DNA of 64,000 nucleotides from Rhabdochlamydiaceae bacterium (GTDB taxonomy: Bacteria > Chlamydiota > Chlamydiia > Chlamydiales > Rhabdochlamydiaceae): the NCBI GenBank assembly GCA_047459655.1, contig JAJREF010000002.1:96001-160000 (forward strand). The letters run 5' to 3'. Below the pieces are notes generated by a model. The model had not been told where the DNA came from and searched no databases. It worked only from the letters and a program-made list of their open reading frames with translations. Position numbers and translations under genes: made by a program. Numbering within the stretch: position 1 is the stretch's first letter; every line of letters starts with the position of its first letter. Below are positions 11,567 to 50,924 of this stretch, in pieces.

Positions 11567-11730
11567 GGGGTTGTAAAACAATAAAATGAACGATTTCACC
11601 GCGCCAAATCAATCGAAAATCGATGATCGGAAATGGGGTTATATCCCTATGAATACTACCCCATTTCCGATCGTCGATTTTAGACGATTTTACGCTGGTC
11701 AAATCGTTCATTTTATTGTTTTACAACCCC
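11567..11730. mobile_element. Palindromic MITE-like element A1 (164 nt, TTA direct repeats)
   Basis: GGGGTTGTAAAACAATAAAATGAACGATTT...AAATCGTTCATTTTATTGTTTTACAACCCC, near-fully self-complementary. Second copy at 37737-37900. Confidence 0.9.
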
Positions 11731-12980
11731 TTATAGGGAGCAATAATCATGGAAGAGTTATGCCCGCCAAATCCAAAAGCGTTGATAAGAGCTGCAGTTA
11801 CAGTGAGATCTTGAGCTTTACCAGCAACAATATTTGTAGAACCAAGCCCCTCTTCAGGTTCGTCGACATTGATGGTGGGGTGGATTTTTTTCTTAAGAAT
11901 CGCTTGTAGAGCTACAACTGCTCCAAAAGCACCTGCGGCTCCCAATGTATGACCAATCATAGATTTTGTGGCATTGACAACTATCTTATCCATCTGGCCA
12001 CCAAATACTTTTTGAAGTCCAAAAATTTCACACATATCTCCAGCCGGAGTAGATGTTGCATGCGCATTCACATAATTGATGTCTTTTTTGGAAATTCCTG
12101 CATCTTCGATTGCTTTTTCCATACAGAAAGCTACCTCAGTGCCGTCTTCTCGAGGGCTAGTCATATGGTAAGCATCACAATTGACAGCCCCACCTAAATA
12201 TTCCCCAAGAATAACAGCTCCCCTAGCAAGCGCATGCTCTAAACTCTCCAGAACCAAAACAGCTGAGCCTTCTCCCATAACAAACCCATCTCTTTTTTTA
12301 TCCCAAGGGCGAGAAGCTTTTGTGGGTTCATCATTTCTTTCAGACAAAGCTTTAATAGCAACAAACCCTGCGACACCAATAGGAGTAAGCGGAGCTTCTG
12401 ATCCTCCACAAAGCATGAGATCTGCTTCTCCCCTGCGAATATGCTCTGCGGCTGCATTAATCGAGTAACTACCAGTTGCACATGCTGTCGAAATTGAGTA
12501 GTTCGGGCCCTTAAAACCTAGGTCAATTGCTAAAAGAGCTCCACACATGTTGGTAATAATATAAGGGACAAAAAAAGGCGTAAGTCTTTTAAAGCCCTGA
12601 TTTAACAGTGTTCCAACACCGTCATAAAAAACATTCATCCCACCCATCCCAGAACCTATGATGATTCCACAACGCTCTTTATTTAGCGTCTCTAAGTTAG
12701 GTCCTAAAAGGCCCGCTTGCTCCAAGGATTTTTTCCCAGCTACCATTCCATAGCGAATATAGGGATCTATACGCCTTGCTTGTTTTTTATCAATGTAGTT
12801 CTCTGTATCGAAAGAAAGAACGCTTCCTGCAAAGCGAGTAGGGTACTCTTCGCAAGGGAACTGATGAATCGCGGAGACTCCACTTTTTCCATCAAGTAAA
12901 TCCTGATAGAACCGGTCAACATCGTTTCCTAAGCAAGATACGATACCCATTCCTGTAATAACAACTCTTTTTTTAGACAT
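11721..12980 (-). CDS. fabF: 3-oxoacyl-ACP synthase II
   Basis: KRVVITGMG, STACATG, NAHATST, KSMIGH, FGFGGHN. Confidence 0.97.
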   Translation of the reverse strand: MSKKRVVITGMGIVSCLGNDVDRFYQDLLDGKSGVSAIHQFPCEEYPTRFAGSVLSFDTENYIDKKQARRIDPYIRYGMVAGKKSLEQAGLLGPNLETLNKERCGIIIGSGMGGMNVFYDGVGTLLNQGFKRLTPFFVPYIITNMCGALLAIDLGFKGPNYSISTACATGSYSINAAAEHIRRGEADLMLCGGSEAPLTPIGVAGFVAIKALSERNDEPTKASRPWDKKRDGFVMGEGSAVLVLESLEHALARGAVILGEYLGGAVNCDAYHMTSPREDGTEVAFCMEKAIEDAGISKKDINYVNAHATSTPAGDMCEIFGLQKVFGGQMDKIVVNATKSMIGHTLGAAGAFGAVVALQAILKKKIHPTINVDEPEEGLGSTNIVAGKAQDLTVTAALINAFGFGGHNSSMIIAPYKGL

Positions 12981-13059
12981 AAGTAGCTTGGAATATAGCG
13001 TAATAAGGCAATATTTCTCAATATTTTTAGATTGCGCTTTCACAAAATTTGGAGTACAC

Positions 13060-13390
13060 TTCGCATGTTCGACTATCAAGGGCGTGGATAGAATACTTCC
13101 TTACTTTGAAGAGGACCTCAAGCAGGGATATTATCCTTTTATATTTGAAGACCCCAATTCTTACTATGAAAAAATCTCTAGAGTCATTGGGAAAACAATT
13201 TTTGAAGATATAGCAAACTACTACAATTTGAAAACGCCCAATCTTCAGTACTTCAAGAAACTACTGACATATCTTGCTTCACCCCCCCGGGAGAACTAAA
13301 TATGCACAATTTAGCCAAGAACTTGGGAATAGATCACAAAACAGTAGAACACTACGTGTCGATTTTGGCTTCTGTTGGGCTCATTAGGGA
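13060..13390 (+). pseudogene. Internal fragment of an AAA+ ATPase (AAA_14/DUF4143-like)
   Basis: FEEDLKQGYYPF...IFEDI...LAKNLGIDHKTVEHYVSIL...GLI across a frameshift. No Walker A region; ends at element B1. Confidence 0.6.
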
Positions 13391-13549
13391 GTCTCTGGAT
13401 AAGTGCTTTGTCGGAGATTGCTGATCAGTTTTTCGAAGACGACGATTTTGGAGAACGCAGCTAACATGTAGAATGTTAGAGAGTTCGAAAAATCTAGTAT
13501 TCGCAAAAATTGGCGGCAAGATTTGGCAAATGACTTGTCCAGAGGTTCC
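13387..13549. mobile_element. Palindromic MITE-like element B1
   Basis: Degenerate left end and ACTTGTCCAGAGGTTCC right end, TTA on both sides. Highly similar to 19109-19270. Confidence 0.85.
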
Positions 13550-13951
13550 TTAAAGGGGAAATTCCGCTTTTTCTTTTTGGGTTTCTTTATTAGCCCCTAC
13601 GTTAATAGTAAGGTCGACGATTTTTCCCTCTTTCCAGAGCTGCTCAAGCTGGTATTTATCTCTGAGACCTGGCTGGAAAAGATGGACCATGATGTCAAAG
13701 AGATCAAGAACAGCCCATTCCCCTTCTTTAACTCCTTCTGTATGCTCGACTACTTCGCCCTTTTTTTCTAGAGCTTCTATGATAGCCTTACCGATAGCGC
13801 TTACATGGCGATCAACATTACCTTCTGCGATAATGACGTAATCTGTCATAAAAGAAACGCCTCGTACATCGAGAGCTAGGATGTTAATCCCTTTTTTATC
13901 GTAGATTGTTTGCGCAATGAGATTCAAAGTGTCTAAGGGATCTCTTTTCAT
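13550..13951 (-). CDS. rsfS: Ribosome silencing factor
   Basis: DKKGINI..DYVIIAEG..RHV..EG..WAVLD..VHLF..R..Y.LEQLW. Confidence 0.93.
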   Translation of the reverse strand: MKRDPLDTLNLIAQTIYDKKGINILALDVRGVSFMTDYVIIAEGNVDRHVSAIGKAIIEALEKKGEVVEHTEGVKEGEWAVLDLFDIMVHLFQPGLRDKYQLEQLWKEGKIVDLTINVGANKETQKEKAEFPL

Positions 13952-14574
13952 ACGTAGAGTCCATTTTCTTTAATGTACTCTCCTACTTTAATAGGGAGTA
14001 AATGTCCGCAATATAGGTTTTTTTTGAGGCGCGCCCTGATATCTGTGCTGCTGATTTCTATGATTGATGTTTTCGTAAGCCCTTCTTTCAAAATAGTAGC
14101 CACTTTTTTAGGGAGTTGTTTATTAGATAACTCATTTTCCTGTATCCGAGTTCCGATCAAGGGAGGGGCTAGCTCTACAAGCTCTTCAAAATCTTTCCAT
14201 AAGTGAAAGTTTTCTAAGGCATCTTCTCCTAAAATTAGGTGATACTCTTTCTCTTTGCTTGCATCCATTTTAATCAGGTATCTAATAGAGTCAATCGTAT
14301 AACAGGGGGCTGTTTTTTGGATTTCAATATCTAAAAACGTGAACTTGGGAATAGGGCCAATGGCAGCTACTACCATTGCCCGCCTTTGATCTTTTGTCGC
14401 AACAGGAGGCTCTTCTTGTTTATGAGGAGATTGACTAACAGGGCAAATAAGGACTTCATCAAGCTCATGGATTTCTAGCATTTGAATCGCAAGATTTACA
14501 TGTCCAATGTGAATGGGATCGAATGTTCCCCCAAAGAAACCAACTTTTTTTACCTTGCTCAAATCACACTCCAT
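13948..14574 (-). CDS. nadD: Nicotinate-nucleotide adenylyltransferase
   Basis: FGGTFDPIHIGH, YTIDS, ISSTDIR. Confidence 0.95.
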   Translation of the reverse strand: MECDLSKVKKVGFFGGTFDPIHIGHVNLAIQMLEIHELDEVLICPVSQSPHKQEEPPVATKDQRRAMVVAAIGPIPKFTFLDIEIQKTAPCYTIDSIRYLIKMDASKEKEYHLILGEDALENFHLWKDFEELVELAPPLIGTRIQENELSNKQLPKKVATILKEGLTKTSIIEISSTDIRARLKKNLYCGHLLPIKVGEYIKENGLYV

Positions 14575-15203
14575 TTGCGTAGGCGGGCTATTTTTAAGAG
14601 TTTACGGTCTGGATTCACAGCGATGGGACAACCTGCTTCTAGAAGAAAAGGGAGGTCATGGTAACTATCAGAATAAGCTGTGATAGCGTCTTTCGATATT
14701 TGAAAATGTATAGCTAATTCCAACAGATAAGCTGCTTTATTTCTTCCTTCCATTAATTTCGCAATCTTGCACAAGCGGCGATCTTTGTCAACTGTGTACT
14801 TGGTTGCTCCCCACTCATCGACTTGAAAAAATTGGGCAATAGGCTCTACTAAAAAGTCAGGGGAATTAGACAGAATAACTGTATAATCGCCTCTTTTTTG
14901 AGCTTTGAATAATTCTGCCACCGTTGGCAAGTAAAGAGAAGAAAATAGAAAGTTCTCCAAAAAAGAGGGAACCTGTTTTTTTAAGGTAGTAAGAGGTAGT
15001 CCTAGAAGGATTTTTTTAAATACCTTGTCATGCAATTCTTCAATGGAAAGAAAAGAAAGTTCGTGGCCTATTCTATAGGCTGCACAACAGAGTAATTGTT
15101 TAAAAGAAATGATCTTGCATTTGTAAAGATGTCTACAAAACTCGTAACTGCTGTTAGAAGCTAAAAGAGTCTTATCAAGATCAAAGGCGGCGAGTTTCAA
15201 CAT
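14559..15203 (-). CDS. HAD-IB family phosphatase
   Basis: FDLDKTL motif I; AYSDSYHDLPFL and AVNPD motifs. Confidence 0.9.
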   Translation of the reverse strand: MLKLAAFDLDKTLLASNSSYEFCRHLYKCKIISFKQLLCCAAYRIGHELSFLSIEELHDKVFKKILLGLPLTTLKKQVPSFLENFLFSSLYLPTVAELFKAQKRGDYTVILSNSPDFLVEPIAQFFQVDEWGATKYTVDKDRRLCKIAKLMEGRNKAAYLLELAIHFQISKDAITAYSDSYHDLPFLLEAGCPIAVNPDRKLLKIARLRKWSVI

Positions 15204-15217
15204 CCCGGAGCCCTTAG

Positions 15218-16649
15218 TTACGCAAGAGGTCTATCTTCCAAGCTGCTGATCTTATCTTCTATATCTTCTATAGCAGCATTGACTTTATCTAAGCGCAATT
15301 TTTCCGCATCCATCATCTCTCGGTAATGCATGGCTTTTTCGAAGTCAAAGTCAGACCCAGCAAGAGCTTTGCGGTAATGGTCTACTTGCAACTTGATCTC
15401 AGCGCGTTGAGCTTGCCCTTCTGCCAATTTCTCATTTAAATAGGCAAGAGATTGCTGCTGCTCTGGGGAAAGAGTAGATAAAGCTTTTTCTTTTTTATCG
15501 AGGATTTTATCTCGCATTTTCTTCAAAAGATTCTCTAGAATTTCTTTTTCAGCAACGGCTAACATCAATTTTTTGACTTTCTGAGAAAGTTGTTCGCGGA
15601 GTGCAATTGCTAAATCAAGAGGAGTAACTTCAACAGATTCTAGAGCTTGCTGGATTTCAGTACGAAGCTCTTCTAGTTTTTCTCTCTTTTGACGTTGTAG
15701 CACTTCTATTTGTAAATTTCTTTCCTCTTCTTCTTTAGAAACTTTCACTAAGACCTGCCTACTTTCTTCTTTTTTCTGTAGGTATTCCTTTCTAAAAGCA
15801 TCTTCTCTCTCTTTTAAAAGATCCCAGCATTTACTCAGAATAACACGCGTATGGTTAAAACTATGGGCATCTAACGTAAAATCCTTTGCAACAGACTGAA
15901 GGCTTTTAATTCTCTGCCTTGACGTTAAAAGTAGGCTGGTTTGCTTGAGAAGCATCTTCGAAGTTTATTTTAGCAAATGCTTCCAAATCCCTTAAAAACT
16001 GTTCTGAGACTTGCTTAATTAATTCTTTCCGTCTTGGGAAAACACTATCACCCACAATTGAAAGACGCTCAAAAAACTTGTTCTTGATCCGTGCTCTCAT
16101 TTCTGTTTTAATGATTTCTTTACGCAAGCTATTAACACGCGAGGCCATGGTATTTAGCCAATGCAACTCTCGTTGCAGAGCATGGTAGAGCTCTTTGTTT
16201 TTAGAAAGTGTCTGGACAAAATCCAAAGATACCTGGCAGGGAAGCTGCGCTATGATCTTATCTCGATTTAGCAAATCTTGCTCGAGAGCGTTAATAGCCA
16301 AATCTAGTTGTTCTACGATGAAAGCCGACTGTTCATCCAGTATATCCTTGAGTTGCTTTCCTTCTGCAGAAATTTCAATATATTCCTTCCAAAAGCGGGA
16401 ACGGGAGGAAGAGTTAAGATTTTCCTTGAAAAAGGGGAGGCAGATCTTCTTAATTTCCCAAAAGTCTCTAAACCGAGGAGAGGATTTTTCAGCAAGGGCC
16501 TTTTGCATGAAATCAAGACTCAAGCGAATCTTCTCTTCTGGTTTCTTAGATTGACTTAGAGATTCTTGAAATTTGTCAAAAGGAGCAAGCTCTTTTTCTG
16601 CTTGGATAGGATCTTGCTCTGCCTGTAGGTCTTCAGTCGTAATACTCAT
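15218..16649 (-). CDS. Conserved chlamydial coiled-coil protein (CT768-like), one frameshift near 15905
   Basis: Two abutting helical ORFs between miaA and nadD/rsfS. Assignment rests on recalled chlamydial synteny. Confidence 0.65.
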
Positions 16650-16721
16650 ATATTTAAATCCTAGGAAGACAGTCTAATGCAAAGAGTTATTAAGATTAAA
16701 GTCTAAAGTTTTTTTTTAGCC

Positions 16722-17743
16722 TTACCCTAGCTCATAATCTTGAATAATCATTTCGGCGGTATGATCAAAGCCCATAGTGCCAATATCGATCCAACGAAAG
16801 AGCTCTTCTTTCCTAAACCACGTGAACTGCCGCTTCGCGTAGCGGCGTGAAGCTTGCTTAAAAAGGTCTACAAATTGGGTCCAATCTTCGACCGTCTGAG
16901 GAGTCTTTAAAAAATCTAGACACTGGCGATAGCCAATTGCTTGGGCAGCTGTCGTATTATTACGAAGACCTTCTTGATCTAATTGCTTGACCTCCTGCAC
17001 AAACCCATTCGTGAGCATCTGCTCACATCTTGCTTCAATCTTGGGATATAAAACCTCTTTGGGCGTATACACAAACCAACATCGAAAATCATATTCATGG
17101 GAGATGTGGCATGCTTTCTCAAAAAAAGAGACTTTCTGATTTGTTAGAGTGATGATTTCAAGGGCACGCACGATTTTATGGCGGTCTCTAAAAGTAATGG
17201 TAGCAGCATATTCAGCATCTAATTTTTTTAACCTTTCATACATAGCAAGTAAGCCAAGAACATCTACCTCTTGTTCTAGCTTTTCTCTTACTTCAGGAAC
17301 TGAAGCAGGACCACACGGTGGCCCATAGATTAAAGAGTGGATATAAAAACCTGTTCCTCCTACTACAATCGGCACATGATCTCTTGCAAAAATTTCCCTA
17401 AAGGCCTGCATAGCCTCGCTGTAAAACTCAACCACATTAAATGTTTCATCAAGATCCCGGCTATCGATCAGATGGTGGCGGATAGAGCCTCTTTCTGCAG
17501 GTGTAACTTTAGCGGTTCCAATATCCATACCCCTGTAGACTTGCATCGAATCAGCAGACACAATCTCTCCCCCTATGGCTCGTGCAATCATAAGAGAAAG
17601 TTGCGTCTTTCCCACTCCCGTAGGCCCCGCAATGATAATGATTCTCTTTTTTATGAAAAGTGGGAATTCTTGCTTTTAGAGGCAGGTCAAAACCTTGAAC
17701 CTTTGATCCTTCGAAGATAAAATTCGAATGCACAGCAACCCAT
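16722..17743 (-). CDS. miaA: tRNA dimethylallyltransferase (5' frameshift, start approximate)
   Basis: GPTGVGKT, SADSMQVYRGMDIGTAK, VGGTGFY, YAKRQFTWF. Confidence 0.95.
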
Positions 17744-17806
17744 CTGGGGTTAAATGATGATTATACACATTAAACACGACGTGAGAATTTTTCTAATAGA
17801 AAATAT

Positions 17807-18037
17807 TTACTGGATAAGCTCAATACGAACGCGTCTACCAAATCTTGCTCCCACAATCATGGCGATCGTGCGTAGGGCCTTAATAGTACGACCTTGCTTG
17901 CCAATAATTTTAGCGACATCGCCTGAAAAAGCTCTGACTTCTATCATGGTTCCCTGATCGCCCTCTACTATTTGGATATCGACAGATTCAGGTTGATCAA
18001 CAAGATTTTGAATTAGATATGCAATAAATTCTTTCAT
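17807..18037 (-). CDS. khpA: KH-domain RNA-binding protein
   Basis: MKEFIAYLIQNLVDQP...IIGKQGRTIKALR. Confidence 0.85.
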   Translation of the reverse strand: MKEFIAYLIQNLVDQPESVDIQIVEGDQGTMIEVRAFSGDVAKIIGKQGRTIKALRTIAMIVGARFGRRVRIELIQ

Positions 18038-18106
18038 ATTCAGTCTTTTTTCTTTCCGCTGAAGAAGACAGGATACCAATCGCTCAAATTTGGCGCAATC
18101 GGTTTT

Positions 18107-19306
18107 TTACTTGTCTAGTGAGAAAAAAGATTCATTTATAAGATCTGCTATTTCCCTTTTCATAGTTTTTTTGTACTCAAGCCACCATGCATAACACTTT
18201 GCACGAAGCGCTTCTAGCTCCACAGGGTTTTCTAATAATTTTTGGACAATAGCTGGCGCCTCACCCAAGTATTAACTGCCAAGAAAGGATAATCTCCCAT
18301 TAGCCTTTGGAAATAATCAAAAGGAATTTTTTCAACAATCGAAATACAACCACATTCCAAGGCTTCGCAGACTCTAAAGCAATCAAAATTCCAACAACCC
18401 TTAGGGCATGGCATAAAGGTGGTATTTAGAAACAAGTTTCGATACTCCTCAATAGAAAGAGAATCTGGCCCATTAAAAGACATGATCTCATGTATAAAAT
18501 AGTGAGGAATATTTTCATGCTTGGAGCCATTGCTATTCGGGTGCTTTTGGTAATCTGCCCTGCAAAACTCCAGTTGTACATCCGCTTAGAAACCTCTTAA
18601 TCTCAGGGTGCATCCCATCTCCCCAAAAAACCTGCTCGTATCCGAATAGAAAAAATTTGATCTTTGTATTTACAACCGCTAATGGCTGCTTTTTTCTAAA
18701 TATATTCCTTGTGTTCAGAATGGGTTTTAGAAATTTTTTATGCCAATAATTTCTTAAAACAAATGCGCAATACTGATAAAAGTTCGTTGATTCTGTATAA
18801 ATTTCATCTGATGAAATAATAGCGCCTACTTTGTATTTCATATCGTGTAATTTAGCAAAATAATGTTCAATTTTATCTCCAACTCCCCCACAAATAATGA
18901 TTGATTTATCCATGAAGATTTCATATTTTCCATCTACTACTTCTAATATTTCTCTTATCCAGTCTCGCTGATGAAATTTTTCAGGAAAGGCATCTAATGC
19001 TTCTATCTGCCAAATTAGATTAACGGTATAAGAAGACGCCAAAATACAAGATGATAAACATAGAGCGATAATTAGCTTAAATAGAAGCCTTCCAGATGTG
19101 GTAGTTAAGGAACCTCTGGACAAGTGCTTTGTCGGAGATTGCTGATCAATTTTTCGAAGATGACGATTTTGGAGAGCGCAGCTAACATGCAGAATGTTAG
19201 CGAGTTCGAAAAATCTCATATTCGCAAAAATTGGCGGCAAGATTCGGCAAATGACTTGTCCAGAGGTTACTTAAGCAATCTTTAAAAAAACAATCAGCCA
19301 AGACAT
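18107..19306 (-). CDS. Exostosin/GT47-like glycosyltransferase, frameshifted, with element B2 in its 5' region
   Basis: C-terminal FMPCPKG..DCFRVCEALECGCI resembles the GT47 signature; N-terminal hydrophobic segment. Confidence 0.55.
19109..19270. mobile_element. Palindromic MITE-like element B2 (162 nt, TTAA both sides)
   Basis: GGAACCTCTGGACAAGT...ACTTGTCCAGAGGTTAC with an internal GCTAACAT/ATGTTAGC hairpin. Confidence 0.9.
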
Positions 19307-19511
19307 AGATCCCACTCCCTTTTTGTAAACTCTGAACGCATATTCTTGCAGATAGACACCTTACATGAAATGTTCATTTTGAATACAAAATTTAATCTCT
19401 TGTTCTTTTTGACATTGCGCTGATATGTTAGAAATTAATTTCAATTACCCAGATGTTTTCTTGCTATAGCGATACATACCTAGCAGAATCGAAAAATCAA
19501 AGGAGTTAAAG

Positions 19512-20215
19512 ATGTTGATGTGTTTATTAATATTATTATGTCAATGGATAGGATTAACAGCGAACCCGACTGACCTCCCACCACCTTATGATAGCGTAGA
19601 GCTCTTACCCTTTAATCCCCACGGTTGGTTTGCGGAGGGAATCGAGTAAACATAGAAAAGCTTATAAAAAAGAGGCAAGTAAAAGTAGTCGTTGAAGTAG
19701 GTTCTTGGCTTGGAGCCTCTACACGCCATATAGCCAATATGCTTCCCGAAGATGGCGTGGTGTATGCGGTTGATCACTGGCTGGGGTCTCCTAACGAGGA
19801 TAATAGCGCCTATGATATACCTAATTTATATACACAATTTCTTTCAAATGTAATCCATACAAACCTAACCCATAAGATCATCCCATTGAGAATGTCTAGT
19901 CTAGAAGCTGCTAAAACGTTTACAGTTAAACCTGATTTAATCTATCTCGATGCTACCCACGACTTCGAGAATGTTTATGCAGACTTACAGACCTGGTTTC
20001 CTTTTGTCAAAGGACATGGCATCCTCTGTGGAGATGATTATTACTGGAAAGACGATCTTAAACGCGCTGTAGACTTGTTTGCCGAGGAAAATAATCTTGT
20101 AGTCCATGATATGGGTTGGTTTTGGTACTATGAAGAAAAGGATCTGTTGCCACAAAACGATAAAGAAAGGCAATTATTGCCAAAAAAAAGACAAGGCTTT
20201 ATGCGCCACAGATGA
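19512..20215 (-). other. No separate minus-strand feature; the gene here is on the + strand (next entry)
   Basis: Antisense ORFs 19586-19777 and 19985-20173 are shadows of the + strand gene. Confidence 0.1.
19512..20215 (+). CDS. Class I SAM-dependent methyltransferase (Methyltransf_24-like) with signal-peptide-like N-terminus, frameshift near 19635
   Basis: RBS AGGAG, hydrophobic MLMCLLILLCQWIG, VEVGSWLGAS, DLIYLDATH, GILCGDDY. Confidence 0.85.
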
Positions 20216-20237
20216 CGTGTCTATTTCTTGCTAGGCG

Positions 20238-26051: not shown

Positions 26052-27516
26052 TGTCAACGCAAAATAGAAATGTCCGCTTTTCTCCAATTTAGAAATGTCC
26101 TCTTTGGATGTTCTGATCTTCATTGGACTTGTCCGTTTTTTATCTAAAATACCCATTTTCAAAAGCTCTTCTCTTATCTCCACGGGTGACTCCTTGAAGG
26201 TTTTTGAGGTTTTTTGTTTATCCAATTAAGTGCTAAATCTATTTCTTTGGACATCACAATTTTCCCTTGCGGTTCTTCCCCATATATCTTGTATTTTAAC
26301 TCCTTGCCCTTATACAGCACTCTTACCCGTCCATTGAGATCTTCTAGAAGCATGACTTTTGCTTTCCTTAGAGTGTATGATGATCTTTCACTATCGATCT
26401 GATAAAGACTGTTTTTGTATTGGAAGCTTAAGTTTTTAGAGAGACATCGGATTTCCTGGTAACTGAAAATCTCTTCTAAGTTCTCTTCTGGTTTTAAAGC
26501 TCGATGAGCATCTTCTGCGTTTCTAGGAGCTACGGCAAATTTTTTGTTATACTTCTCTATGAACTCGGGAATCCATTCATTTGCCTTTTCAATAGTTGAA
26601 ATATTTTTTTCTCTCATCTCCTTGACTAAACGATCTTGCAATGTTTGATTGGCTTTTTCAACTCTTCCTTTTGCCTGGGGTGTATTGGCACAAATGAGCT
26701 TGATATCGAGTTTTTTTAGGACTCTTCCAAACTCTGTCACTCCATTACCAGATACAGCTTCTTTGTGGTTGACTCTAAAAACTCCATATTTATCGCTGTA
26801 GAAAGCAAGTGGTTTTCCACATCTCTTTAGATACCTTTTTGTCGCTTTAAAATAAGATTCTGTTGTTTCACCAAGAGAAAAAAACAGCTCGACAAGTCTA
26901 CTAGTTGCATCATCAATGTATACTAAAAGGGTACACCTGGGTCCTCTATTTTCAAACCAGTCATGGGGAGATCCGTCTATTTGTACAAGATCTCCATACT
27001 GACTCCTTCTTGGTCTCATCGGGTGGATAACTGCCTTTTTAGCTTTTTTAGGAGACCAAATATTTTCTTCTATCATCCATTTCCTAAGCGTCTCTATAGA
27101 CAATGTAAGCTTATGTTTTTCCTCTAACTTTTCTTGAGCTAACGTAGGGCCATAATCTGCATAATGAGCGGAAATCAGCTTTAGGACTTGTGATCTAAAA
27201 GCTTCTGTTAACCTGCGATTACTAGGCTGCCCTCTCTTTTGGAAACTAAGCCAGCTTCTCCATGCAGTTCGTAAGCTTGTTTTAAACGTCTAACTTGTCT
27301 GGCTGTTATCCCCAGACGTTGTCCCACTTCTATCTGGGAAAAGCTTTTTCTTTTTAAATTGCGCATCATTTCAACTCTTTCTAATTCTCTTCTGCTCATA
27401 GTTATCAACTCCTTCACTCTCACCTCCTTTCAAAAACAAATTTGAATGAGGTCAGTATCTTCAAAAGAGGACATTTCTATTTAGCAGAAAGAGGACATTA
27501 TCATTTTGGGCTAACA
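26052..27516 (-). mobile_element. Insertion sequence, IS1202-family-like (ISNCY), 1465 bp with 14/15-bp target duplication
   Basis: Ends TGTCAACGCAAAATAGAAATGTCC and GGACATTATCATTTTGGGCTAACA; repeated subterminal TAGAAATGTCC; flanks CAAAAA(A)GGGAATGA at 26038-26051 and 27517-27531. Confidence 0.9.
26174..27423 (-). CDS. DDE transposase (frameshift near 27230)
   Basis: N-terminal HTH (LGITARQVRRL), QIDGSPHDWFE, YIDDATS, YSDK, PQAKGRVEKANQTLQDRL. Confidence 0.92.
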
Positions 27517-28924: not shown

Positions 28925-28990
28925 GGAACCTCTGGACAAGTCCTTCGTCGAATCTTGTTGCCAATTTTTGCGAATACTAGATTTTTTGAA
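28925..28990. repeat. Truncated element B4 (inverted relative to B1/B2)
   Basis: GGAACCTCTGGACAAGTCCTTCGTCGAATCTTGTTGCCAATTTTTGCGAATACTAGATTTTT is the reverse complement of the B1 right arm. Confidence 0.85.
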
Positions 28991-29043
28991 AGAAATCTAA
29001 CGTAGAAGATGCAGAAGAACTGCTAGAATTCATTTGACTCTTA

Positions 29044-32214: not shown

Positions 32215-32301
32215 ACTCACCTTACACAAAAAAGATAGGTCATGGAGTGTTTGAAAGCTGTTGAAACACTCCATGACCTATCCTTTTTGCGTAAGGTGAG
32301 T
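32215..32301. mobile_element. Palindromic element C1 (internally deleted, 87 nt) with TAAATA direct repeats
   Basis: ACTCACCTTAC..GATAGGTCATGGAGTGTTT / AAACACTCCATGACCTATC..GTAAGGTGAGT. Full-length copy at 50531-50693. Confidence 0.88.
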
Positions 32302-37736: not shown

Positions 37737-37900
37737 GGGGTTGTAAAACAATAAAATGAACGATTTGACCAGCGCAAAATCGTCTAAAATCGACGATCGG
37801 AAATGGTTTAGTATTCATAGGGATACAACCCCATTTCCGATCATCGATTTTCGATTGATTTGGCGCGGTGAAATCATTCATTTTATTGTTTTACAACCCC
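37737..37900. mobile_element. Palindromic MITE-like element A2 (164 nt, inverted relative to A1)
   Basis: Same termini as A1; flanks CAA / TAA. Confidence 0.9.
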
Positions 37901-37996: not shown

Positions 37997-38159
37997 GAGA
38001 CCGTTGCATAAGTGATCATGTTTGTAAAAATGCACATTTTGCGATCTTTCGATTTTCGCTCGCCCCTATGGGGCGTCCCCCATATGCGAGCTCGTTCAAT
38101 TCAAAGTTTCATCAAAATGTGCTACTTTTTCAAAACACGCTGACTTATGCAACAGTCTC
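37997..38159. mobile_element. Palindromic MITE-like element D (163 nt) with AATAT direct repeats
   Basis: GAGACCGTTGCATAAGT...ACTTATGCAACAGTCTC; internal GCACATTTTG/CAAAATGTGC stems; AATAT at 37992-37996 and 38160-38164. Confidence 0.85.
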
Positions 38160-39645: not shown

Positions 39646-39661
39646 CCTCCTCATCTCTTAT

Positions 39662-39732: not shown

Positions 39733-39746
39733 ATATAAGATTATAT

Positions 39747-40562: not shown

Positions 40563-40584
40563 ATATCTTCTGCGAAAAATTAAT

Positions 40585-41030: not shown

Positions 41031-41333
41031 ATGAATGTTCCATTGAGATTTATAAAGTGGAAAAAGAATTGGATACTTCCTATCATATTAACCAGCGCCC
41101 TTAATTTTGCCTTTGTAGACCATCTTGTTGATTTTCATGTACACTCTCCGCAAGAAGAAGAGAACAGCAAAGAGCAGAACGAGAGCATGAAAAAGCAGAA
41201 AAAAACAAAGAGAAACAAAAAAAATCTAAAAGAGAAAGAGAGTCATCCAAAAAAAAGTAAGTGAGAAAACAAAGAAAAAAGAACGGAAAGCCGAAAAAAA
41301 AGCGGATCAAAAGAGATATGAAAAACAGCTTAA
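41031..41333 (+). CDS. Small K/E/R-rich hypothetical protein, probably frameshifted
   Basis: RBS GAGGT, hydrophobic N-terminal stretch, charged low-complexity tail. Confidence 0.4.
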
Positions 41334-41407
41334 ATCAGGAAAATGTGTTTAATGACACTATAATTGGTGTTACTATTAGGCAATCCTTTTTATCGAGGAG
41401 ATCTATA

Positions 41408-41666
41408 TGAAACAGTCAGTAAAAGGTGAGCTCATGGTGCTTTTCATATGTATCGTTGTTGTTCCTGTAGTGCTTCTATTTGGGGGGAATGGGTTGAACT
41501 TTTCTATATGAAACATATGTCTCAGCGCAAATATTCTTATCTCGATCAAGGAATAACTGAAAGAGGAAAACATTGCTTTACCGTAACAGATGCAACAGAT
41601 TCGAAATTTATCAAAAGTATTTCACTAACAGAATTGCAAGAAAAGTTTTTAGACCCTAAAGAATAG
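41408..41666 (+). CDS. Hypothetical protein (probable 5' frameshift)
   Basis: RBS GAGGAG before ATG near 41408, plus ORF 41448-41666. Confidence 0.35.
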
Positions 41667-41827
41667 GACCCAAGTAAGTATTTGCTTTATTGGCCAGCCT
41701 TCTTTTCCATAGATACCCTATCACGAAAAATCTTTAATATGCAGGGCGTTTAAACATCATCACGAAGATTGCTAATATCTTTCAGTTCATATATCATTTT
41801 GTTTTTGTATGAGCAAAGGAGTGAATT

Positions 41828-43422
41828 ATGTCCGCTGAAGCCAAGGAACTTATCTTTCAAGAAGAAGCAATAGAGAAATTACGGGAAGGTATTGAAAAGC
41901 TGTCAGATGTCGTAAGCGTAACTTTGGGCCCTAAAGGAAGAAGCGTAGGAATAGAGGCATCTTACGGCTCTCCTAATCTTACTAATGACGGACATACTGT
42001 GGTGCAGGGGATCGAGTTCAAAGACCAATACGTCAATATGGGCGCTTCGATGGCTAAAGAAGTAGCTACCAAGATGAAAGAAATCTGTGGAGATGGAACC
42101 ACAACCAGCATTTTACTTCTTAGATCCCTTGTGCAAAACGGAATTAAAAATATCACATCCGGTGCCAGTCCTATTCTTTTAAAAAGAGGGATGGACAAAG
42201 CTGTTGCAGCTGTGATTGCAGAAATAGAAAAAATCTCTATCCCTATTCAAACAGATAAAGACATTCAAAACATTGCATTAATTTCTGGATCTGGTGACGA
42301 AGAAGTGGGCGCCTTTATTGCAGAGGCTATCAAAAAAACAGGGAAAGAAGGGTCATTACCATAGAGGAAGGAAAGAGTACAGACACAGTGATTGAAATCG
42401 TGGAAGGAATGCAGTTTGAAAGAGGCTATACAAGTTCTTACTTCTGCACAAATACAGAAAATCTGTCGGTAGAGCTCACCAATGCAAAAATTTTAATCAC
42501 CGACAAAAAAATCTCCTCTATTCAAGAAATTTTACCCATTCTCCAGTCAATTGCGGCAACAGCCACCGAGCTTTTAATCATTGCCGATGACATTGAAGGA
42601 GATGCTCTATCTACGCTTGTCGTCAATAAGCTAAGAGGAACACTAAAAGTCTGTGCTGTGAAAGCCCCTGGCTTTGGAGACCGTAGAAAAGCTTTGTTAG
42701 AAGACATTGCTATCTTAACAAATGGGACTCTAGTCTCTGAAGATAGAGGGATGACCCTACAAACAACTTCTATAGAATCTTTAGGTGAAGCAGAAAAGAT
42801 TATAATCACTAAAGATAAAACAGTGCTTGTAGGCGGCAAAGGCCCAGCAAGCGCCATTCAAGCCAGAATTGGCCAAATAGATGCTGAGATAAACCTAGCA
42901 ACAAGTTCTTATGATAAAGAAAAGTTAGAAGAGAGAAAAGCCAAGCTAGCAGGTGGTGTTGCCGTAATCCGCATTGGTGCTGCCACAGAAACAGAGATGA
43001 AAAAGAAAAAACAAGCGTTTACAGATAGTTTAAACTCCACAAGAGCTGCTCTTGCGGAAGGAATTGTACCTGGCGGCGGCCTTGCGCTCCTGCAAGCCAG
43101 CCTTGCGATCTCTCTTTCTTCTCTAAAAAATGAAGAGAAGACGGGTGCTCAGATTGTGCTCAAAGCCTGTGAAACTCCTTTCCGCCAAATTGTCTCTAAC
43201 GCAGGATTTGATAGTTCTGTTATTTTAGAACAGCTCACGGCTCTTGGTGTCAACTTTGGATTCAATGCGCAGAATGAAAAAGTAGAAAATCTTGTCCTGG
43301 CAGGTGTCGTTGATCCAACCAAAGTGGTTAAAAATGCTCTTAAATTAGCGGCTTCTGTTGCAGGAGTTGTCTTGATATCTGAAGTGTTAATTGGAAATGC
43401 GCCTGAAAACAATGTCTCTTAA
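41828..43422 (+). CDS. groEL: Chaperonin GroEL paralogue (frameshift near 42350)
   Basis: VTLGPKGR, GDGTTT, EGMQFERGY, KAPGFGDRRK, GIVPGGG, VVDPTKV. No GGM tail and no adjacent groES. Confidence 0.93.
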
Positions 43423-44258
43423 GCAAAAAGCAGTTGTCATACCCTCTTCTGGTATTGGAGATGCTCTGATGATGATGATTGCCTCAGAGCATCTTCGAAA
43501 AGCTGGCATTGCTGTAACGACCATCTACCCCAAACTCCTTGAGCTCCAAGAGTGGTTTCCAGAGCATGTATTTGTGGAAGCTAAGGATTTTTCTCGTGAT
43601 GAGTGGGTGATTGTCCAAAATAATAATCTGCCTCATATCAATGTTTTAAAAAACACCTGCCGTAACCATCTCTCTATTTTGTACCCCACGTACTCCTACA
43701 ATAAACACGGGGCTATCACCCCTTTAAGATAGAGTTTTTAATGCAACGCAATCAATGGCAGACAATATTGCCATCGCGATTCACTCCCTAACAGGCCAGT
43801 GTAGTGTCTCGAAAGAAAACGGCATGACCCCTCCCTCCCACCTCTCTCACCGCCGACATCCTAACCGTGTGCTTATCCACCATACAAGCAGCGCCCAGAA
43901 AAAAATTGGTTAAAACATAAATACGATGCTGTCTTTAGAGGTCTTGAGAAGAGGATTTGAGCCGGTTTTTGTGCCAGAATTTGCTACATTGAGCAAGCTT
44001 GCCGCTTTTGTTTATGAGTCAGGTTTTGTGATTCGGTAACGATTCTCTTGTAGGGCATTTAGCTTCTAATCTAAGGATTCCTACGCTGATTATTGCAGAT
44101 CAATTTGATCGCATGCGCCTCTGGCGCCCCGGATGGTATCCAGGCGCTGTTGTCACTGTAGACAAATGGCTTTCACATTGGAAGTTCTTTAGAAAAAATG
44201 GCAACATTTTATTTCCCCTTCTCACGTGTTAAATATTTTTGATGGATTACGGAGGTAA
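43412..44258 (+). CDS. GT9 (heptosyltransferase-like) protein with multiple frameshifts
   Basis: GIGDALM N-terminus; downstream pieces VLIHHTS, KNW, GNDS..GHLAS.L.IPT. Confidence 0.65.
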
Positions 44259-44319
44259 TTGCAAAACTCAGGTTCAAAAGAACCCAAAATTCGAGTGAAC
44301 CTGAGTTTTGCAACTACCT
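44253..44319. repeat. Palindromic element E (67 nt)
   Basis: AGGTAATTGCAAAACTCAGGTTCA...TGAACCTGAGTTTTGCAACTACCT, 24-bp arms with one mismatch. Confidence 0.8.
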
Positions 44320-44335
44320 ACAAGGAGATTTTTTT

Positions 44336-44896
44336 ATGAAAAGAGTAACAAAATGGTTATGTGGGCTCCCTCTCATGTGTTCTTTTGGCCTTCAGGCTGG
44401 AGAAGCATCTTTTACAATGCCAGCAGATCCTGTGATGGTGATAGAAACAAATCAAGGAAATATCGAAGTGCGACTATTTCCAAAAGTAGCTCCCAAAGCA
44501 GTGGAAAACTTTATCCGCTTAGCAGAAAAGGGCTATTATAATAACACCACCTTCCACCGCATTATTCCTAATTTCATGCTCCAAGGAGGAGATCCTCTAG
44601 GCAATGGAACGGGTGGACAATCAATCTGGAACACAAAGTTTGAAGATGAGTACAGCTCATCTCTATCGTTAACAAACCTGGATATTTAGCCATGGCCAAT
44701 GCAGGCCCTAATACCAATGGAAGTCAGTTTTTTATTACGACTGCAGATACCCCTTGGCTTAATCGTAAACATACGATTTTTGGTGAGGTGATCGCAGGTC
44801 AAAAGGTAGTCCAAGCTATCGAAAAAGCTGGGTCTCCGAGTGGTAGACCAGTATCTACTACAGACAATTTTAAAAATCTCCTTGAAAACACCTTAA
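44336..44896 (+). CDS. Cyclophilin-type peptidyl-prolyl isomerase with signal peptide (frameshifted)
   Basis: [44 protein letters not shown]. Confidence 0.93.
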
Positions 44897-47092
44897 GGCT
44901 TGTAATAAAGAAGAGGTGGTGGAAGATTCACAATTGTCGTATCAATATAGTCTCCCCGTTTTTCCGAGGAAAGATGGGGAGCTAACGACGAAAGTAGATC
45001 TTCGAGGAGTTTTTCAAAAAAATCTCCCAGTAAGCTGAAAAGACTGCCACTCGTTGAAAATCATAGCAGGCGGATGATTCCCCGCAATAGGGTGCAAGAT
45101 GTTATCGATAGATGCTCCTTGTAAATGGGACCAATTGGGGAGATGCGCACATAAATCTTTTGATCTGAGTAAACAGCAAGCTCATTTTGTATAGATCCCT
45201 GCCTTGAATTAAGATAAACATTCCCCTTCGATGTGATTTTATGAGATGAAAGTCCACCAACGGTGTCCCTTTGCGCATCCATATTGACAGAGGTCCCAGA
45301 GATATTTCCATGCATTGTTATGTGTTTAGCCTCTATGTTTATCAGGAGAGAGAGGTGCAGAAATCTCTCCTGATGACAATACACCTGCAGAAAGTGAGAT
45401 GTTTGCTTTCTTAGGAGCCTCTATCGCAAAAAATTTAAATTCCCCTTTCCCTGTATTGGCTTGAAAAGTTTCACCTTTGAAAACAACCGATCCCCTTTCA
45501 AAAGCTATATCCTTTCCATGAGAAATAAACTGGGTAGAAGCATCGACAATAAAATGGTCAGCTTCCCAGGTCTGCTTTCCTGTATTGTATCGATTCCCCT
45601 TCAGATCAATATTATTTTTGGCACGCACACTTATCTCTTCAACACCGCTAGCCTCTCCCCCCACACTTCCTATTTGAACATCCTTAGCTGTAGTTTGAAG
45701 CTTATTTAAAGGTGTTATCTCTCCAATAGATCCATGAAATGCTACGGTCCCATCTCCCGCGCTAATAGCTAATGCAGAATAAGCACCTTGTCCATCCAAA
45801 GGACCGTTGAATCTTACATCTCCCTTGCTCGCCCCGGTGCTCAATACAATTGGTGTATTTCCTGCTAATACAACAGGCCCATCAAACGTAATATTGCTTT
45901 GCGCAGCTGTAATGTTACCCGCTAGATACGTCTCACCTGTACAAGTAACGGGTGATTTAGTTCGAATAGGTTGATTCACTTCTATCCGTTTGCCCATCAC
46001 CTCTAAAGGAGAGGGGACCGCTCCGTTAAGCTTTACCTAGTGAAATGGTCCCTACAGGAGCAATCAATGACAATTTCTTGTTCATTGTTAAAGTATCTTG
46101 AAAATCTATACCCTTTTTGCCAGCAGCTGATATCACAATGTTAGAGGTATCGACTGACATATCTCCTTTAAAAGAAATGCTATCTCCTGCATGAATATCG
46201 GTCCGCACATATGTTTTTCTGCGCTGCAACATTCAAGTTGTGAGAATGTATTTTCCAGCAATCGCTACGGTAGGAGCATCAAGAAAGGTGTTTCTTGCTA
46301 ATATTTCACTGTAACCTGCAATCCGTACGACCCCATTTTCATTAATGATCCCATGCCCCTCTATGAGACCATCTTTGTTGACAACACTTTCAATCACTTT
46401 TTTAGCAGCAGAAAGACGTAGATAGACATCCCCTTGTTCACAGGCAACCTTTCCTAGCTGTTGAATAATACCCTGTTCTAACTCCCCTTCAACAGCAAAG
46501 CTAACAAGATGATCACCGGTCAGATCGAGTGTTACGATAGGAGCTCCAACTAAGGCAACTCTTCCTGCCGTTGCATGGATGATTCCCTCGTTGATGATAT
46601 GAGGGGCCATGAGCACAATTTCACCTTCTAGACTGGCCGTCAAAGTCCCATGATTGATAATTTTACTGCCTTTTCCTTCAGGAGATAATTGAAAACGGAA
46701 ATTCCCCTTTTGGAAATTTTCATTGGAAATATCCAAGGTCGACGCAATCAAAGCGCCTGTACTAATGACACTATTCGGCCCAAAAACGATTCCATTGGGG
46801 TTGATTAAAAATACTTTTCCAATCGATTCAAGTTTGCCTAAAATTTTAGAAGGATCATTGCCCCGCACGCGCGTTAACATTCTAGATTTAGCACTCGGCT
46901 GAACGATTTTGACCGTATAATTCTCGGAAATGTTAAAACTTTTACAATTGATAATTGTTGCATCGTTCGTGGTGATCTCAAGGTGTGTGGGGGTGACTTG
47001 CTGAAACTGCGCCGATCCATGCACCACCTGAGGCTCTTCCATATGAGCAAATAGCGCAAGCGGAAGTGTGAAAAAAGAAAAGGTGTTCTCAT
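44893..47092 (-). CDS. TpsA / filamentous-haemagglutinin-family exoprotein (several frameshifts)
   Basis: Signal peptide, TPS domain ([34 protein letters not shown]), beta-helix-like repeats. Confidence 0.85.
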
Positions 47093-47093
47093 C

Positions 47094-48865
47094 TTATAAA
47101 ATTTGAAGTCCAATTTTAAAATACACAATGGTGTCGGAAGATCTAAATTTTTGGGTTAACGGATACCCAGCATCGAGACTAAAGTCAAACCGCCAGGGTC
47201 CATAAATACGAATGCCGGCTCCTGCAGCCGTTAAAATCGGTCGATTCACTTGTGGAACAGCACTCACTTGCTTTTGTCCCTCTGAATTTCTTGTAACCTC
47301 TTTAATTTTATCAACCCCTATCGAAAATGTTTGTCCATGATCGAGAAATCCTACAAAATGCACGAGTTCTCCCCATCTTTTCTTAGACCAAAGAGCTCTG
47401 TGACCTCTTAAAAAAGGAGGTGGCACACGCAGCTCTACATTAAACACAAACCCCTGATCCCCCAATCCTTCTGCTAACTTATATCCACGCACAGTCCCAA
47501 TACCACCAATATAGAACTGCTCAGGAAGGGGAAGTTTATTGAAACTATACTGGCCAAAACCATTGAGAATTAAGACACAATCCCAAGGAAGCTTTTGAAA
47601 TCTTTGCCCACTGCCTCCTAGTTTTATAAACCTTCCACCAGCTCCCTGCCGGCTTGAATCTGAGTCATCAACTTTCATCCCTTGCAAAATATCAGGGATA
47701 CCCCAACTCATGTATCCAGCAAACAGGTTTCTACCCTTCCAATCATCTCTATAATCAATATTCATGCCACCTGTCAATACGCGAAGCTTATCAAACGATG
47801 ACTGCAACCCATTTCCTAAGTTTTGTATCTGCTTATATTCAAACGATGTGAAAAAATCAGTGCTTAATTTTCTAGTACGATGGATGGCCTGTATAAATTT
47901 TCCTGCTGCAATATGGGTCTTCCCTTCAAATTTAATGTCTTGGCCCACATCACCTGTCTTAAAATTGGCCAGCAAGTAAGAAAACTCGAAACCACTGCCC
48001 CTTGTATTCACAGGAATATAGTAAATAGCATCTGTAAAATCTAGACTTGAAATCGGACTCCCAACAACTTCTATCACAGATAGCGTGTCTCCATACCTGA
48101 TCAAGCTACCCCAGTCTAGCTTTGCGCCTGTTCTCATTGTAGAGGTATGATCAGAACCATAATTGTTGGTATCTGAGCAAGGTGGATTGGCCGTGTGTCT
48201 TTAACACGGAGTAGAACATCTGTTGTCCCAAATGAATGCCCCTTCATGAAAATTGCTGCAACTTCTAGGTCCATATTTTCACCTAAGAGGAGCAGCTCTT
48301 TTAGAAACTCGTCATAGTTGATCGCTTTATTGCGAAATCTTTCAAAATAACTCCGAATGAAAGCATCGCTATAATATTTGTTACCTTTGACAGTAATCTC
48401 TCCTAGCTTGCCTTCAAGAATGGCAATTTTGAGCACGCCCCCTTGAAGTTCTTGCGCGGGAGTATAGGCTCTTGTTAAAAAATACCCAGCTTTCACATAT
48501 TTTTTTGGATTAAGACACACATCTCTCTGATTTCTTGCATCGAAAAGCAGATGCCCTAAATAGGGAGCTACTACCTTGAGCAATTCTTTCGTAGAAAAAA
48601 CCTCATGACCAGAAAATGTCACTTCTTCAATCGTAACCTTTTCATCTCCCACATCGAGTTGATCTTCGGGAATATCTATCTCAAGAAGGGGAACTGCCTT
48701 TTCAGCTTCAATTTTGCGCGCTTCATACTCTTGCTCGATTTGCCTTTCGGCAAGCCCTGCTGGAGGAACTCTGGGGTTAGGAAGTGCCCAAGCTAGACTG
48801 GGAAATAAAAAGATAAAACAGATAACCCCCGACTTGAAATATGAAATAGATCTATCGTGTGTCAT
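47094..48865 (-). CDS. TpsB (ShlB/FhaC) transporter (frameshifted)
   Basis: POTRA (YVKAGYFLTRAYTPAQE..GVLKIAILEG); EQFYIGGIGTVRGY motif. Confidence 0.9.
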
Positions 48866-50512
48866 TTTCCAACAAAGCCAGCGCTTCTTGTGCTGAAATT
48901 CTCTTTTGAGGATCAACTTGCAACATCCTTCCTACAATTTTCCATACAATGTCAGTTTCTCCATAATTATCTTGCTGTTTTTTACATAGATTAGCTAGAT
49001 CTTGATCCAACCGCTCTTGTCCGATATTTTCCAATTCACGATCAGGGATATGATAACTTCTTTTAAAACAATCTTGCAAGCAAGGAAGAGGGGGAATATT
49101 CATCTTTGAAACATCAGGAGTTCCCGCCCAATCTGGGAATCCATTTGCAGACCGTGTAGCTTGCTCACCACAGAGCATGGTCAAAACAACAAGCCCGAGC
49201 GCCCATACATCTCCTTTATGAGCATTCTCAAGATTGAACCTCACCACTTGCTCAGAATGGCCTTGTTTCTGAACACAAAATCTGACATATTCCGGAGACC
49301 TAAACCCTGGAGTTCCTGAACAAACACTAGAACATCCAGCTCTATCAAAACCAGATAAAGTTGCCCTCCACTTTCCCTCTTTTTGTACAACAAGAACCGT
49401 ATTACAAGAAATATCGCCATGAAAAAATTGAGAATCTGCTTTGACTTGATCCTTTTGTGGATTTCTGATATTTAACCTCTTTAGGCTGGCGGTGAATATG
49501 AGCAAGTGCAGATAAAAGATCCCCTACAAGAGAGCGTATTTGTTTAGGCTCCATGAGTGGCTTTGTCCTAAATAAATCTGGAAGAGCCCCTTCTGGACAT
49601 CTCGTAATGACCTCCCATTGTTCAGGAGACTCTCCATCTTCTGAGGTCCGATTAATTGCTAAAGGAGGCCTTAATCCCCGTGTTCCTTCCACAACTGTAC
49701 GCAAAAAAGCCCTTCCCTCTTCTGTAGGAGCCTTTCTTCTAAAAAAATACTTTCCATGAGTAAGACTATAACATAAAAGCCCTCCGAGCTTTCCAAAGAC
49801 CCGTTCAGTCATGAGCATGACATCTCGTAATTCCCTGTATTCACTATAGAAAAACCGGAGGGTTAATCCTTGACAAACATCTCTTTCACAAATGAGAAAA
49901 GAACCACTTGCTTGACCAACATTAAGAGACTGTAGAAAGCCATCAAAAACGCCCTCCACCTGACCCTTTATTTGTTCATCTATGTCCAGATCAGATAATT
50001 GAGGCGGCCACACAAGCACCCTTGGGTTAGGGTTCAGGACCTCAGGCTCTTGAGGTCTTATACTAATAGGCTCAGGGAGAATTTTTAAAAAATTTTGCCA
50101 TGTTTCATAGATCGCTCTTTTATACTTTCCACGAGTCTTATCCCCAAGGGTCCTGAGTATTTTTGTGCGGATATTCATTATCCGACTGAACATATCTAAA
50201 GAGGGAGTGTTCTCTTTTTCTTTTTAAAGCATTTAAAACGCCCCTAGCTACCCGGTCAGCACGCACAGAGCCAAGTAAATCAATGCCAAACAATAGAAAA
50301 AAAGGATTTAAAAAAACAAGAGTCCACCACTGTATTCCCCAGCGTCCAACAACCTGTAAGTTCTCATCAATGACAGGAGATCTATAGACCGATACTCCAA
50401 GAAAACGGTGAATGATACCCGCTATGGGAACATAGGGGTTGTTTTTCTCAGTATAAAAAGTTAGCGAACAGTTGCTAATCTCTTACCCAAAACTTATTCC
50501 AGAGGGATCCAT
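48852..50512 (-). CDS. Degenerate Ser/Thr-kinase-like protein (in-frame TAA at codon 10 plus frameshifts)
   Basis: ALAHIH, HGDIS, GTPGFRSPEY, DVWALGLV, MLQVDPQKRISAQEAL. Confidence 0.7.
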
Positions 50513-50530
50513 ATACCCACGAATTAAATA

Positions 50531-50693
50531 ACTCACCTTACGCAAAAAGGATAGGTCATGGAGTATTTGAAAGCTGTTGATAAATCGAATTGCAGAAAAT
50601 GGGTAGTATTGAATGAAATACAACCCAATTTCTGCAATTTGACTTTCAACGCTTTGAAACACTCCATGACCTATCTTTTTGCGTAAGTTGAGT
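50531..50693. mobile_element. Palindromic MITE-like element C2 (163 nt)
   Basis: Same arms as C1 plus a central hairpin; flanks TAAATA / TAAACA. Confidence 0.9.
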
Positions 50694-50787
50694 TAAACAA
50701 AAAAACTTTAACACTCCAGCTTTTTATAGTCGATTAAATTTTGATTTACAACCTTACCTTACGCAACAGGTCTATTTTATTTCTTTA

Positions 50788-50924
50788 GGAACCTCTGTAC
50801 AAGTGCTTTGTCGGAGATTGCTGATCAATTTTTCGAAGATGACGATTTTGGAAAACGCAGCTAACATACAGAATGTTAGCGAGTTTGAAAAATAGACAGC
50901 AAGATTCGGCAAATGACTTGTACA
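50788..50924. mobile_element. Palindromic element B3 (internal deletion, eroded right end)
   Basis: GGAACCTCTGTACAAGT...ACTTGTACA, body collinear with B2. Confidence 0.87.

What the first reader, a model, noticed from the sequence alone, without database searches (positions are those of the whole stretch)
11567..50924. Four palindromic element families with unrelated ends share one length (162-164 nt)
Seen: the full-length copies are A1/A2 164 nt, B1 163 nt, B2 162 nt, C2 163 nt and D 163 nt. Their terminal inverted repeats differ (GGGGTTGTAAAAC, GGAACCTCTGGAC, ACTCACCTTACG, GAGACCGTTGCAT), as do the flanking duplications (TTA, TTA/TTAA, TAAATA, AATAT). Each folds into one long hairpin. None matches the TGT..ACA ends of the only IS in the window. 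Inference: independent deletion derivatives of different IS would not be expected to converge on one size. This points to a common ancestor or a shared size/structure constraint, comparable to Rickettsia palindromic elements. I do not know of such a system described in Chlamydiae.
Basis: partly seen in the sequence, partly recalled or inferred. Interest (0 to 1): 0.85.

Follow-up and report, generated by a model that had tools for sequence, protein, structure and literature searches.

The report
Fixed-length hairpin transposons swapping ends
These are real, gene-less hairpin DNA elements of about 163 bases, present in roughly a hundred full-length copies in this environmental chlamydia, in which a few shared inner cores carry the end sequences of several unrelated insertion-sequence families, so they likely survive by borrowing whichever transposase is at hand while keeping one size.

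Summary
Confirmed and larger than reported. The genome has at least 13 end-types whose full-length copies measure 158-166 nt (95 of 104 at 160-166), about 1.4% of the DNA, with target duplications of 2 to 6 bp.

The ends are IS ends. B matches an IS5-family element in this genome and C an IS701-family element in another chlamydial genome. N matches a second IS5-family element, and a relative's copy matches IS630. Parents of A and D were not found.

The interiors are not IS-derived, and both arms usually copy the same IS end. A and C share one core, found in 30 of 200 other genomes of the order with changed, still-paired arms. B and D belong to a second core group. Cores that do not align with these also measure 161-170 nt.

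So this is a MITE system that likely swaps ends. Why the length is fixed remains open, and short deletion forms (51-94 nt) are common. There is no Rfam or RPE match, and no paper in seven searches describes it. This scan noted the system earlier in other chlamydial genomes.

The parts
11567..11730 (.). A1: 164-nt hairpin element, group-I core, GGGG ends, TTA duplication; supplies the last codons and stop of fabF
13388..13549 (.). B1: 162-nt element with IS5-family ends; its right flank TTAA holds the stop codon of rsfS
19109..19270 (.). B2: 162-nt element with IS5-family ends, TTAA duplication
28925..28992 (.). B fragment (one arm only)
32215..32301 (.). Short C (87 nt, centre deleted), IS701-type ends, TAAATA duplication
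37737..37900 (.). A2: 164-nt element, opposite orientation to A1, between murF and mraY
37997..38159 (.). D: 163-nt element, GAGAC ends, 5-bp AATAT duplication; core of the B/D/I group; parent IS not found
44252..44320 (.).
50531..50693 (.). C2: 163-nt element, IS701-type ends, group-I core homologous to A
50727..50750 (+). Lone L-type (TA-flanked) end fragment
50788..50930 (.). B4: 143-nt shortened B with a B left end and an F-like right end; the same base change on both arms
26052..27516 (-). ISNCY-family IS (TGT..ACA); not a partner of these elements

Best explanation
These are non-coding hairpin MITEs in which a few conserved palindromic cores carry the terminal repeats of unrelated IS families and are likely moved in trans by those families' DDE transposases, likely acquiring new ends by capture and arm-to-arm copying while the total length is likely held near 160-170 nt by selection. 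Shown: mobility footprints (family-specific duplications, filled versus empty sites), end identity to IS5, IS701 and IS630 elements, cores absent from those IS, one core with many ends, one end with many cores, both arms copying one IS end. Inferred: (1) an element lands 13-17 nt inside the end of another element or IS, which puts a foreign tip outside its own; a small deletion and fold-back repair copy that tip to the other arm. (2) The size probably reflects the geometry of bringing two ends together on so short a DNA, by a protein-assisted loop or a cruciform, with the core's fixed mismatches as recognition marks. Step 2 is the weakest (about 0.4).
For: IS5-family element G000:C3:6644-7825 (1182 nt, NF033581 295 bits) has B's ends; 43 of 60 full B copies resemble its right end on both arms, 5 are mixed, 12 involve a tie. 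A 1155-nt IS701-family element in G210 (NF049921 345 bits; five ~1155-nt end pairs) has C's ends; 7 of 8 C copies resemble the same end twice. An 898-nt IS5-family element in G089 has N's ends. A 161-nt group-I element in G195 matches one end of an 1147-nt IS630 in G182 for 23 nt on both arms, against 16 for the other end. B cores in G006 carry the right-type end twice (L002) or the left-type end twice (L009). Nested insertions give empty-site duplications of 4 (B), 3 (F) and 5 (D) bp. Cores A, C, F, H, J, K, L are homologous (z mostly 5-14; C-L only 1.6) while their termini mostly are not. The J core is in 30 of 200 other genomes. In 69 de-duplicated group-I elements the arms are 38% identical yet 1728 of 1908 positions pair; C.C (64 of 68) and G.G (57 of 69) mismatches sit 10 bp apart. 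C-type ends flank other cores at 161-170 nt, five of which match no profile. 12 composites show one element 13-17 nt inside another's end, and C1:502415-502581 has M ends on a group-II core.
Against: No transposition was observed. The only matching transposase found in this 82%-complete genome is broken by a stop. IS701 and IS630 partners come from other genomes. Parents of A and D were not found. Short forms keep their duplications and can be commoner than full ones (A70 x7, C51 x4, E85 x4, O94 x3), so 163 nt may not be needed to move. No completed swap was caught against a known ancestor, and the composites may be dead-end nestings. Core conservation in L085-L202 is partly built into the search pattern.
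Confidence: 0.72

Rival explanations
1. The same MITEs, but the length is only inherited: ends drift by point change plus arm-to-arm conversion towards a new transposase, with no selection on size.
For: The alignment of 22 group-I elements is almost gapless end to end. Weak links join group I, M and group II. Short forms persist with intact duplications.
Against: Cores that do not align also measure 161-170 nt. Matches of 16-23 nt to specific IS ends of three families are hard to reach by drift. Internal deletions are frequent, yet the form shared across genomes stays ~163 nt.
Confidence: 0.3
2. The hairpin is kept because it acts as RNA (terminator, stabiliser, translation re-start) or as a two-way promoter; the size reflects the RNA's function.
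For: Very stable folds (-57 to -134 kcal/mol); 55 of 65 consensus pairs have compensatory changes. 104 of 107 copies lie outside called ORFs, and 8 of 97 abut a stop codon. A TTGA-N19-TATT spacing recurs on both arms.
Against: No G.U over A.C excess (arms 35 vs 53, core 69 vs 55). No orientation bias to flanking genes (group I 4 vs 3 here, 5 vs 6 in relatives; B 6 vs 12). The last T of the -10 box is present in only 6 of 30.
Confidence: 0.15
3. Each family is an independent internal-deletion derivative of its own IS, and the shared size is coincidence.
For: The ends do map to different IS families, and a true 586-nt deletion derivative of the IS5 element exists.
Against: Interiors do not match the parent IS, both arms copy one end, and different end-types share a core.
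Confidence: 0.03
4. REPIN-like elements moved as single-stranded hairpins by an HUH (RAYT-type) enzyme that reads the core; the IS ends are passengers.
For: Position-fixed mismatches in a conserved hairpin core.
Against: Duplication length follows the end type (2, 3, 4, 5, 4-6 bp), as expected for DDE transposases. No HUH search was run.
Confidence: 0.05

Closest known systems
Bacterial MITEs (RUP, Correia/NEMIS, ERIC, YPAL, EFAR, Bcr1, Nezha, QMITE2, the Cardinium IS982-derived MITE)
   Same: 70-300 bp, terminal repeats, target duplications, no transposase, long stem-loops, moved by transposases that read their ends (passages of PMC3733652, PMC3184786, PMC10969869; abstract and first part of PMC9769881).
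   Different: In the passages read, MITE cores of different groups show no similarity (PMC3184786), single families vary widely in size (QMITE1 39-400 bp, PMC10969869), and the Cardinium element derives from its parent IS. Here one core carries ends of at least two IS families, one end carries several cores, and the size is shared.
Rickettsia palindromic elements (RPE)
   Same: About 150 bp, ten families in one intracellular bacterium, in-frame insertion into genes (passage of PMC10969869). Here H adds 56 codons in frame to mfd.
   Different: No RPE profile hit for 14 stop-free frames. RPE1 was not found in the genome (its control rang nowhere). In-gene copies are rare (3 of 107), and partner IS are identified here. 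A DNA-level likeness of some ends and of B's centre to RPE-1 is recalled from memory and untested.
REPINs with RAYT
   Same: Hairpin elements with conserved motifs (search listing PMC3116915; passage of PMC3733652).
   Different: IS-type terminal repeats with end-specific duplications; no GTAG/CGTC tag was looked for.

Membership tests
MITE | Short, non-coding, multicopy, with terminal inverted repeats | tested here: met
MITE | Target-site duplication shown against an empty site | tested here: met
   nested insertions of B, F and D into intact element sequences; tallies
MITE | Ends match an autonomous IS | tested here: met
   B-IS5, C-IS701 (51, 53), N-IS5 (81, 84), a relative's group-I copy-IS630 (100); not found for A and D
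MITE | Mobilised in trans by that transposase | not testable with these tools
   needs a transposition assay
Classical IS deletion derivative | Left plus right IS end with IS-derived interior | tested here: not met
   interiors at shuffle level against the matching IS5 and IS701; both arms resemble one end
RPE | Peptide homology to RPE profiles | tested here: not met
   0 RPE hits in 14 frames; negative, control uninformative
RPE | Frequent in-frame insertion in genes | tested here: not met
   3 of 107 inside called ORFs; mfd is the clear case
RPE | DNA-level homology to Rickettsia elements | not tested
   no Rickettsia chromosome was searched; plasmid searches negative
Rfam structured RNA | Score above gathering threshold | tested here: not met
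   only sub-threshold generic hairpin hits
REPIN/RAYT | Linked HUH transposase | not tested
   no search run

The most novel reading that the evidence does not exclude
A transposase-hopping parasite: an old chlamydial hairpin module with its own recognition marks (fixed mismatches one helical turn apart, a fixed ~36-39-nt distance to the tip) that builds a ready-made synaptic structure of ~163 nt and can be re-tipped with the end of any DDE insertion sequence, so it outlives every IS it borrows from.
Probability: 0.35. Interest if true: 0.85.

Novelty: new variant of a known kind. Interest (0 to 1): 0.62.

Why it matters
MITEs are usually seen as decaying offspring of one IS. Here the heritable unit is the core and the IS end is exchangeable across transposase families, at a constant size. 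That gives a natural series (same core with different ends, same end with different cores) for testing what lets a mini-element be mobilised. It also offers a concrete model for the unexplained origin and spread of RPE-like palindromes, including in-frame insertion into a housekeeping gene. The elements fill over 1% of this genome and are widespread in environmental chlamydiae.

Tried and rejected
Rfam: no family at threshold.

RPE profiles: none.

Plasmid collection: four queries, only short chance hits.

My first guess of IS982 for C: IS982 loci had no C ends; the partner is IS701.

Parent of A: the end pattern hit 2 other genomes of 200, one checked and not an IS end. Of 41 metagenome hits, 40 gave no paired IS end and one is a truncated A copy.

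Parent of D: none in the 27 non-self loci read. F end in G141: two single ends, no partner. IS630 of G146, G200 and G195: same style of end, no exact match to the elements compared.

Promoter-pair and RNA-strand ideas: weak. Adding the duplication to the length does not tighten the cluster or give a common reading frame.

RNA: no RNA holder listed.

The two primary RPE and IS50 papers I looked for are not held, so anything about them beyond PMC10969869 is recalled.

Full report
OBSERVATION. The window is G000:C2:96001-160000 of a 1.61-Mb, 5-contig, 82%-complete genome. All six copies exist and fold as single hairpins. Bounds are A1 11567-11730, B1 13388-13549, B2 19109-19270, A2 37737-37900, D 37997-38159 and C2 50531-50693. 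A family-blind inverted-repeat scan found 240 spans of 40-1000 nt, 64 of them at 160-179 with flanking duplications included. Pairing terminal 20-mers gave 13 end-types with full-length copies: A164, B162, C164, D163, E166, F163, G162, H166, I163, J162, K161, L159, M161 (mean 162.8, SD 2.0). I picked the seeds, so that list favours full-length copies. Types N, O and Q have none here. Of 104 same-end elements in a 140-180 window, 95 are 160-166. Paired elements make up 1.35% of the genome. Of 107 full copies, 104 lie outside called ORFs.

MOBILITY. Duplications follow the end type: A 3 bp (exact in 9 of 10), B 4 (40 of 66; 58 with at most one mismatch), D 5 (7 of 8), F 3 (4 of 5), J 3 (3 of 4), I 5 (6 of 14), C variable 4-6, and TA for G, H, L and M. 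Elements nest in each other, which supplies empty sites: B in D duplicates ATAA, F in B duplicates TAA, and D in G duplicates AGAGT.

THE ENDS ARE IS ENDS. B's ends bound an 1182-nt IS5-family element in this genome, broken by a stop. C's ends bound a 1155-nt IS701-family element in G210. N's ends bound an 898-nt IS5-family element in G089. A group-I element in G195 matches one end of an 1147-nt IS630 in G182 for 23 nt. Parents of A and D were not found. The interiors do not come from these IS: scores against the IS5 and IS701 are at shuffle level, and of 52 comparisons only B against two IS630 loci exceeded the null maximum (29 vs 23 and 23 vs 22). Both arms tend to copy one end: 43 of 60 B copies (5 mixed, 12 with a tie), 7 of 8 C copies, and the G195 element (23 vs 16 nt on both arms). 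G006 has B cores with the right-type end twice or the left-type end twice.

CORES. A, C, F, H, J, K and L share a core (pairwise z mostly 5-14 against pair-preserving shuffles; C-L 1.6). E-G score 8.4 and D-I 4.8. The J query matched 30 of 200 other genomes, mostly over the central ~95 nt. Of 24 loci read, 22 had paired spans of 153-176 nt with different arms, one was cut by a contig end and one degenerate. The 80 titled records are mostly Chlamydiota, with many unlabelled bacteria, some 'Verrucomicrobia', one archaeon and one alphaproteobacterium. About 60 of 72 automatically called termini gave 153-165 nt, with TATA/CTAG counted as duplication; 72 overstates the number of true end-types. In 69 de-duplicated elements the arms are 38% identical yet 91% paired, with fixed C.C (64 of 68) and G.G (57 of 69) mismatches 10 bp apart and no G.U excess. 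On a 22-sequence subset, 55 of 65 pairs have two-sided changes. The G query matched 17 of 199 other scored genomes with several ends, at spans mostly 164-178 including flanks. Profiles link B to a D-ended element of G188 (25 bits) and give only weak links among groups I, II and M. Five C-ended elements of other genomes, 161-170 nt long, match no profile. So the four families of the finding fall into two core groups (A+C and B+D), and the size also holds for cores that do not align.

MECHANISM. Shown: MITE anatomy, IS identity of the ends, and a combinatorial core-end pattern. Inferred: movement in trans by the cognate DDE transposases, and end exchange by insertion close to another end followed by a small deletion and arm-to-arm copying. 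Support for the exchange step is indirect: 12 composites with an element 13-17 nt inside another's end, an M-ended group-II element, and B4 in the window with an F-like right end and the same change on both arms. Least certain is why 160-170 nt. I favour selection on end-to-end geometry (loop or cruciform; the general idea of length limits on synapsis is recalled, not read). Against it, 51-94-nt forms with intact duplications are common. The 70-nt A form joins two ACGATTT repeats and may arise repeatedly after insertion. RNA and promoter readings got little support: no orientation bias, and the -10 T in 6 of 30. 8 of 97 elements abut a stop codon, as TAA-containing targets would give.

KNOWN SYSTEMS. 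It is a MITE by every testable feature, is not a classical deletion derivative, and is not an RPE by peptide profile. It works like RPE in the mfd insertion. Seven paper searches listed nothing describing it. I read passages of PMC10969869, PMC3733652, PMC3184786 and bioRxiv 2024.01.18.576219, the first third of PMC9769881, and only listings for the rest. No supplements were read; MITE catalogues in supplements could contain these sequences, and ISfinder was not available. This scan noted the same system in other chlamydial genomes (unchecked AI notes, seen after my reading was formed) and nothing for this genome. The strand-specificity and gene-junction ideas in those notes were only weakly borne out here.

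VERDICT. Real; a new variant of a known kind; interest 0.62.

Noticed in passing
L014 (G000:C3:40808-41659): A group II intron with no long ORF, about 690 nt, is inserted at the centre of an M hairpin element (RF02001 137 bits, RF01998).
   Followed up: partly
L308:131-2791 (G000:C3): mfd carries an H element in frame (+56 codons) near its N-terminus; the region is about 58 aa longer than in G146, and G015 aligns poorly there.
   Followed up: partly
L309 (G000:C1:313420-313582): An I element is in frame with the 5' end of an RND periplasmic adaptor gene; the true start may lie just after it.
   Followed up: no
L011 (G000:C3:2800-8400): Cluster of IS4 (IS4_3), an IS5/IS1182-like element and the broken IS5 partner of B; a 586-nt deletion copy lies at C3:54550-55135.
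   Followed up: partly
G000:C1:162939-163432: Three B copies head to tail, sharing TTAA junctions.
   Followed up: no
G000:C1:736166-736806: 641 nt between two B ends, holding a 146-codon open frame and an M remnant; a possible captured segment.
   Followed up: no
window:26052-27516: ISNCY-family element with repeated GAAATGTCC/GAGGACATT boxes inside both ends.
   Followed up: no
window:30246-37900 and 41828-43422: Several housekeeping genes (murC-ddl, murG, mraY, groEL) look split by frameshifts, probably assembly errors (gene names other than mraY from my reading of the translations).
   Followed up: no
window:45061-48916: Two-partner-secretion-like pair (haemagglutinin-type N-terminal domain beside a ShlB/FhaC-like transporter), also split; named from recall.
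   Followed up: no
L096, L130: The group-I core pattern also hit records labelled archaeon and Alphaproteobacteria; these may be mislabels or real transfer.
   Followed up: no
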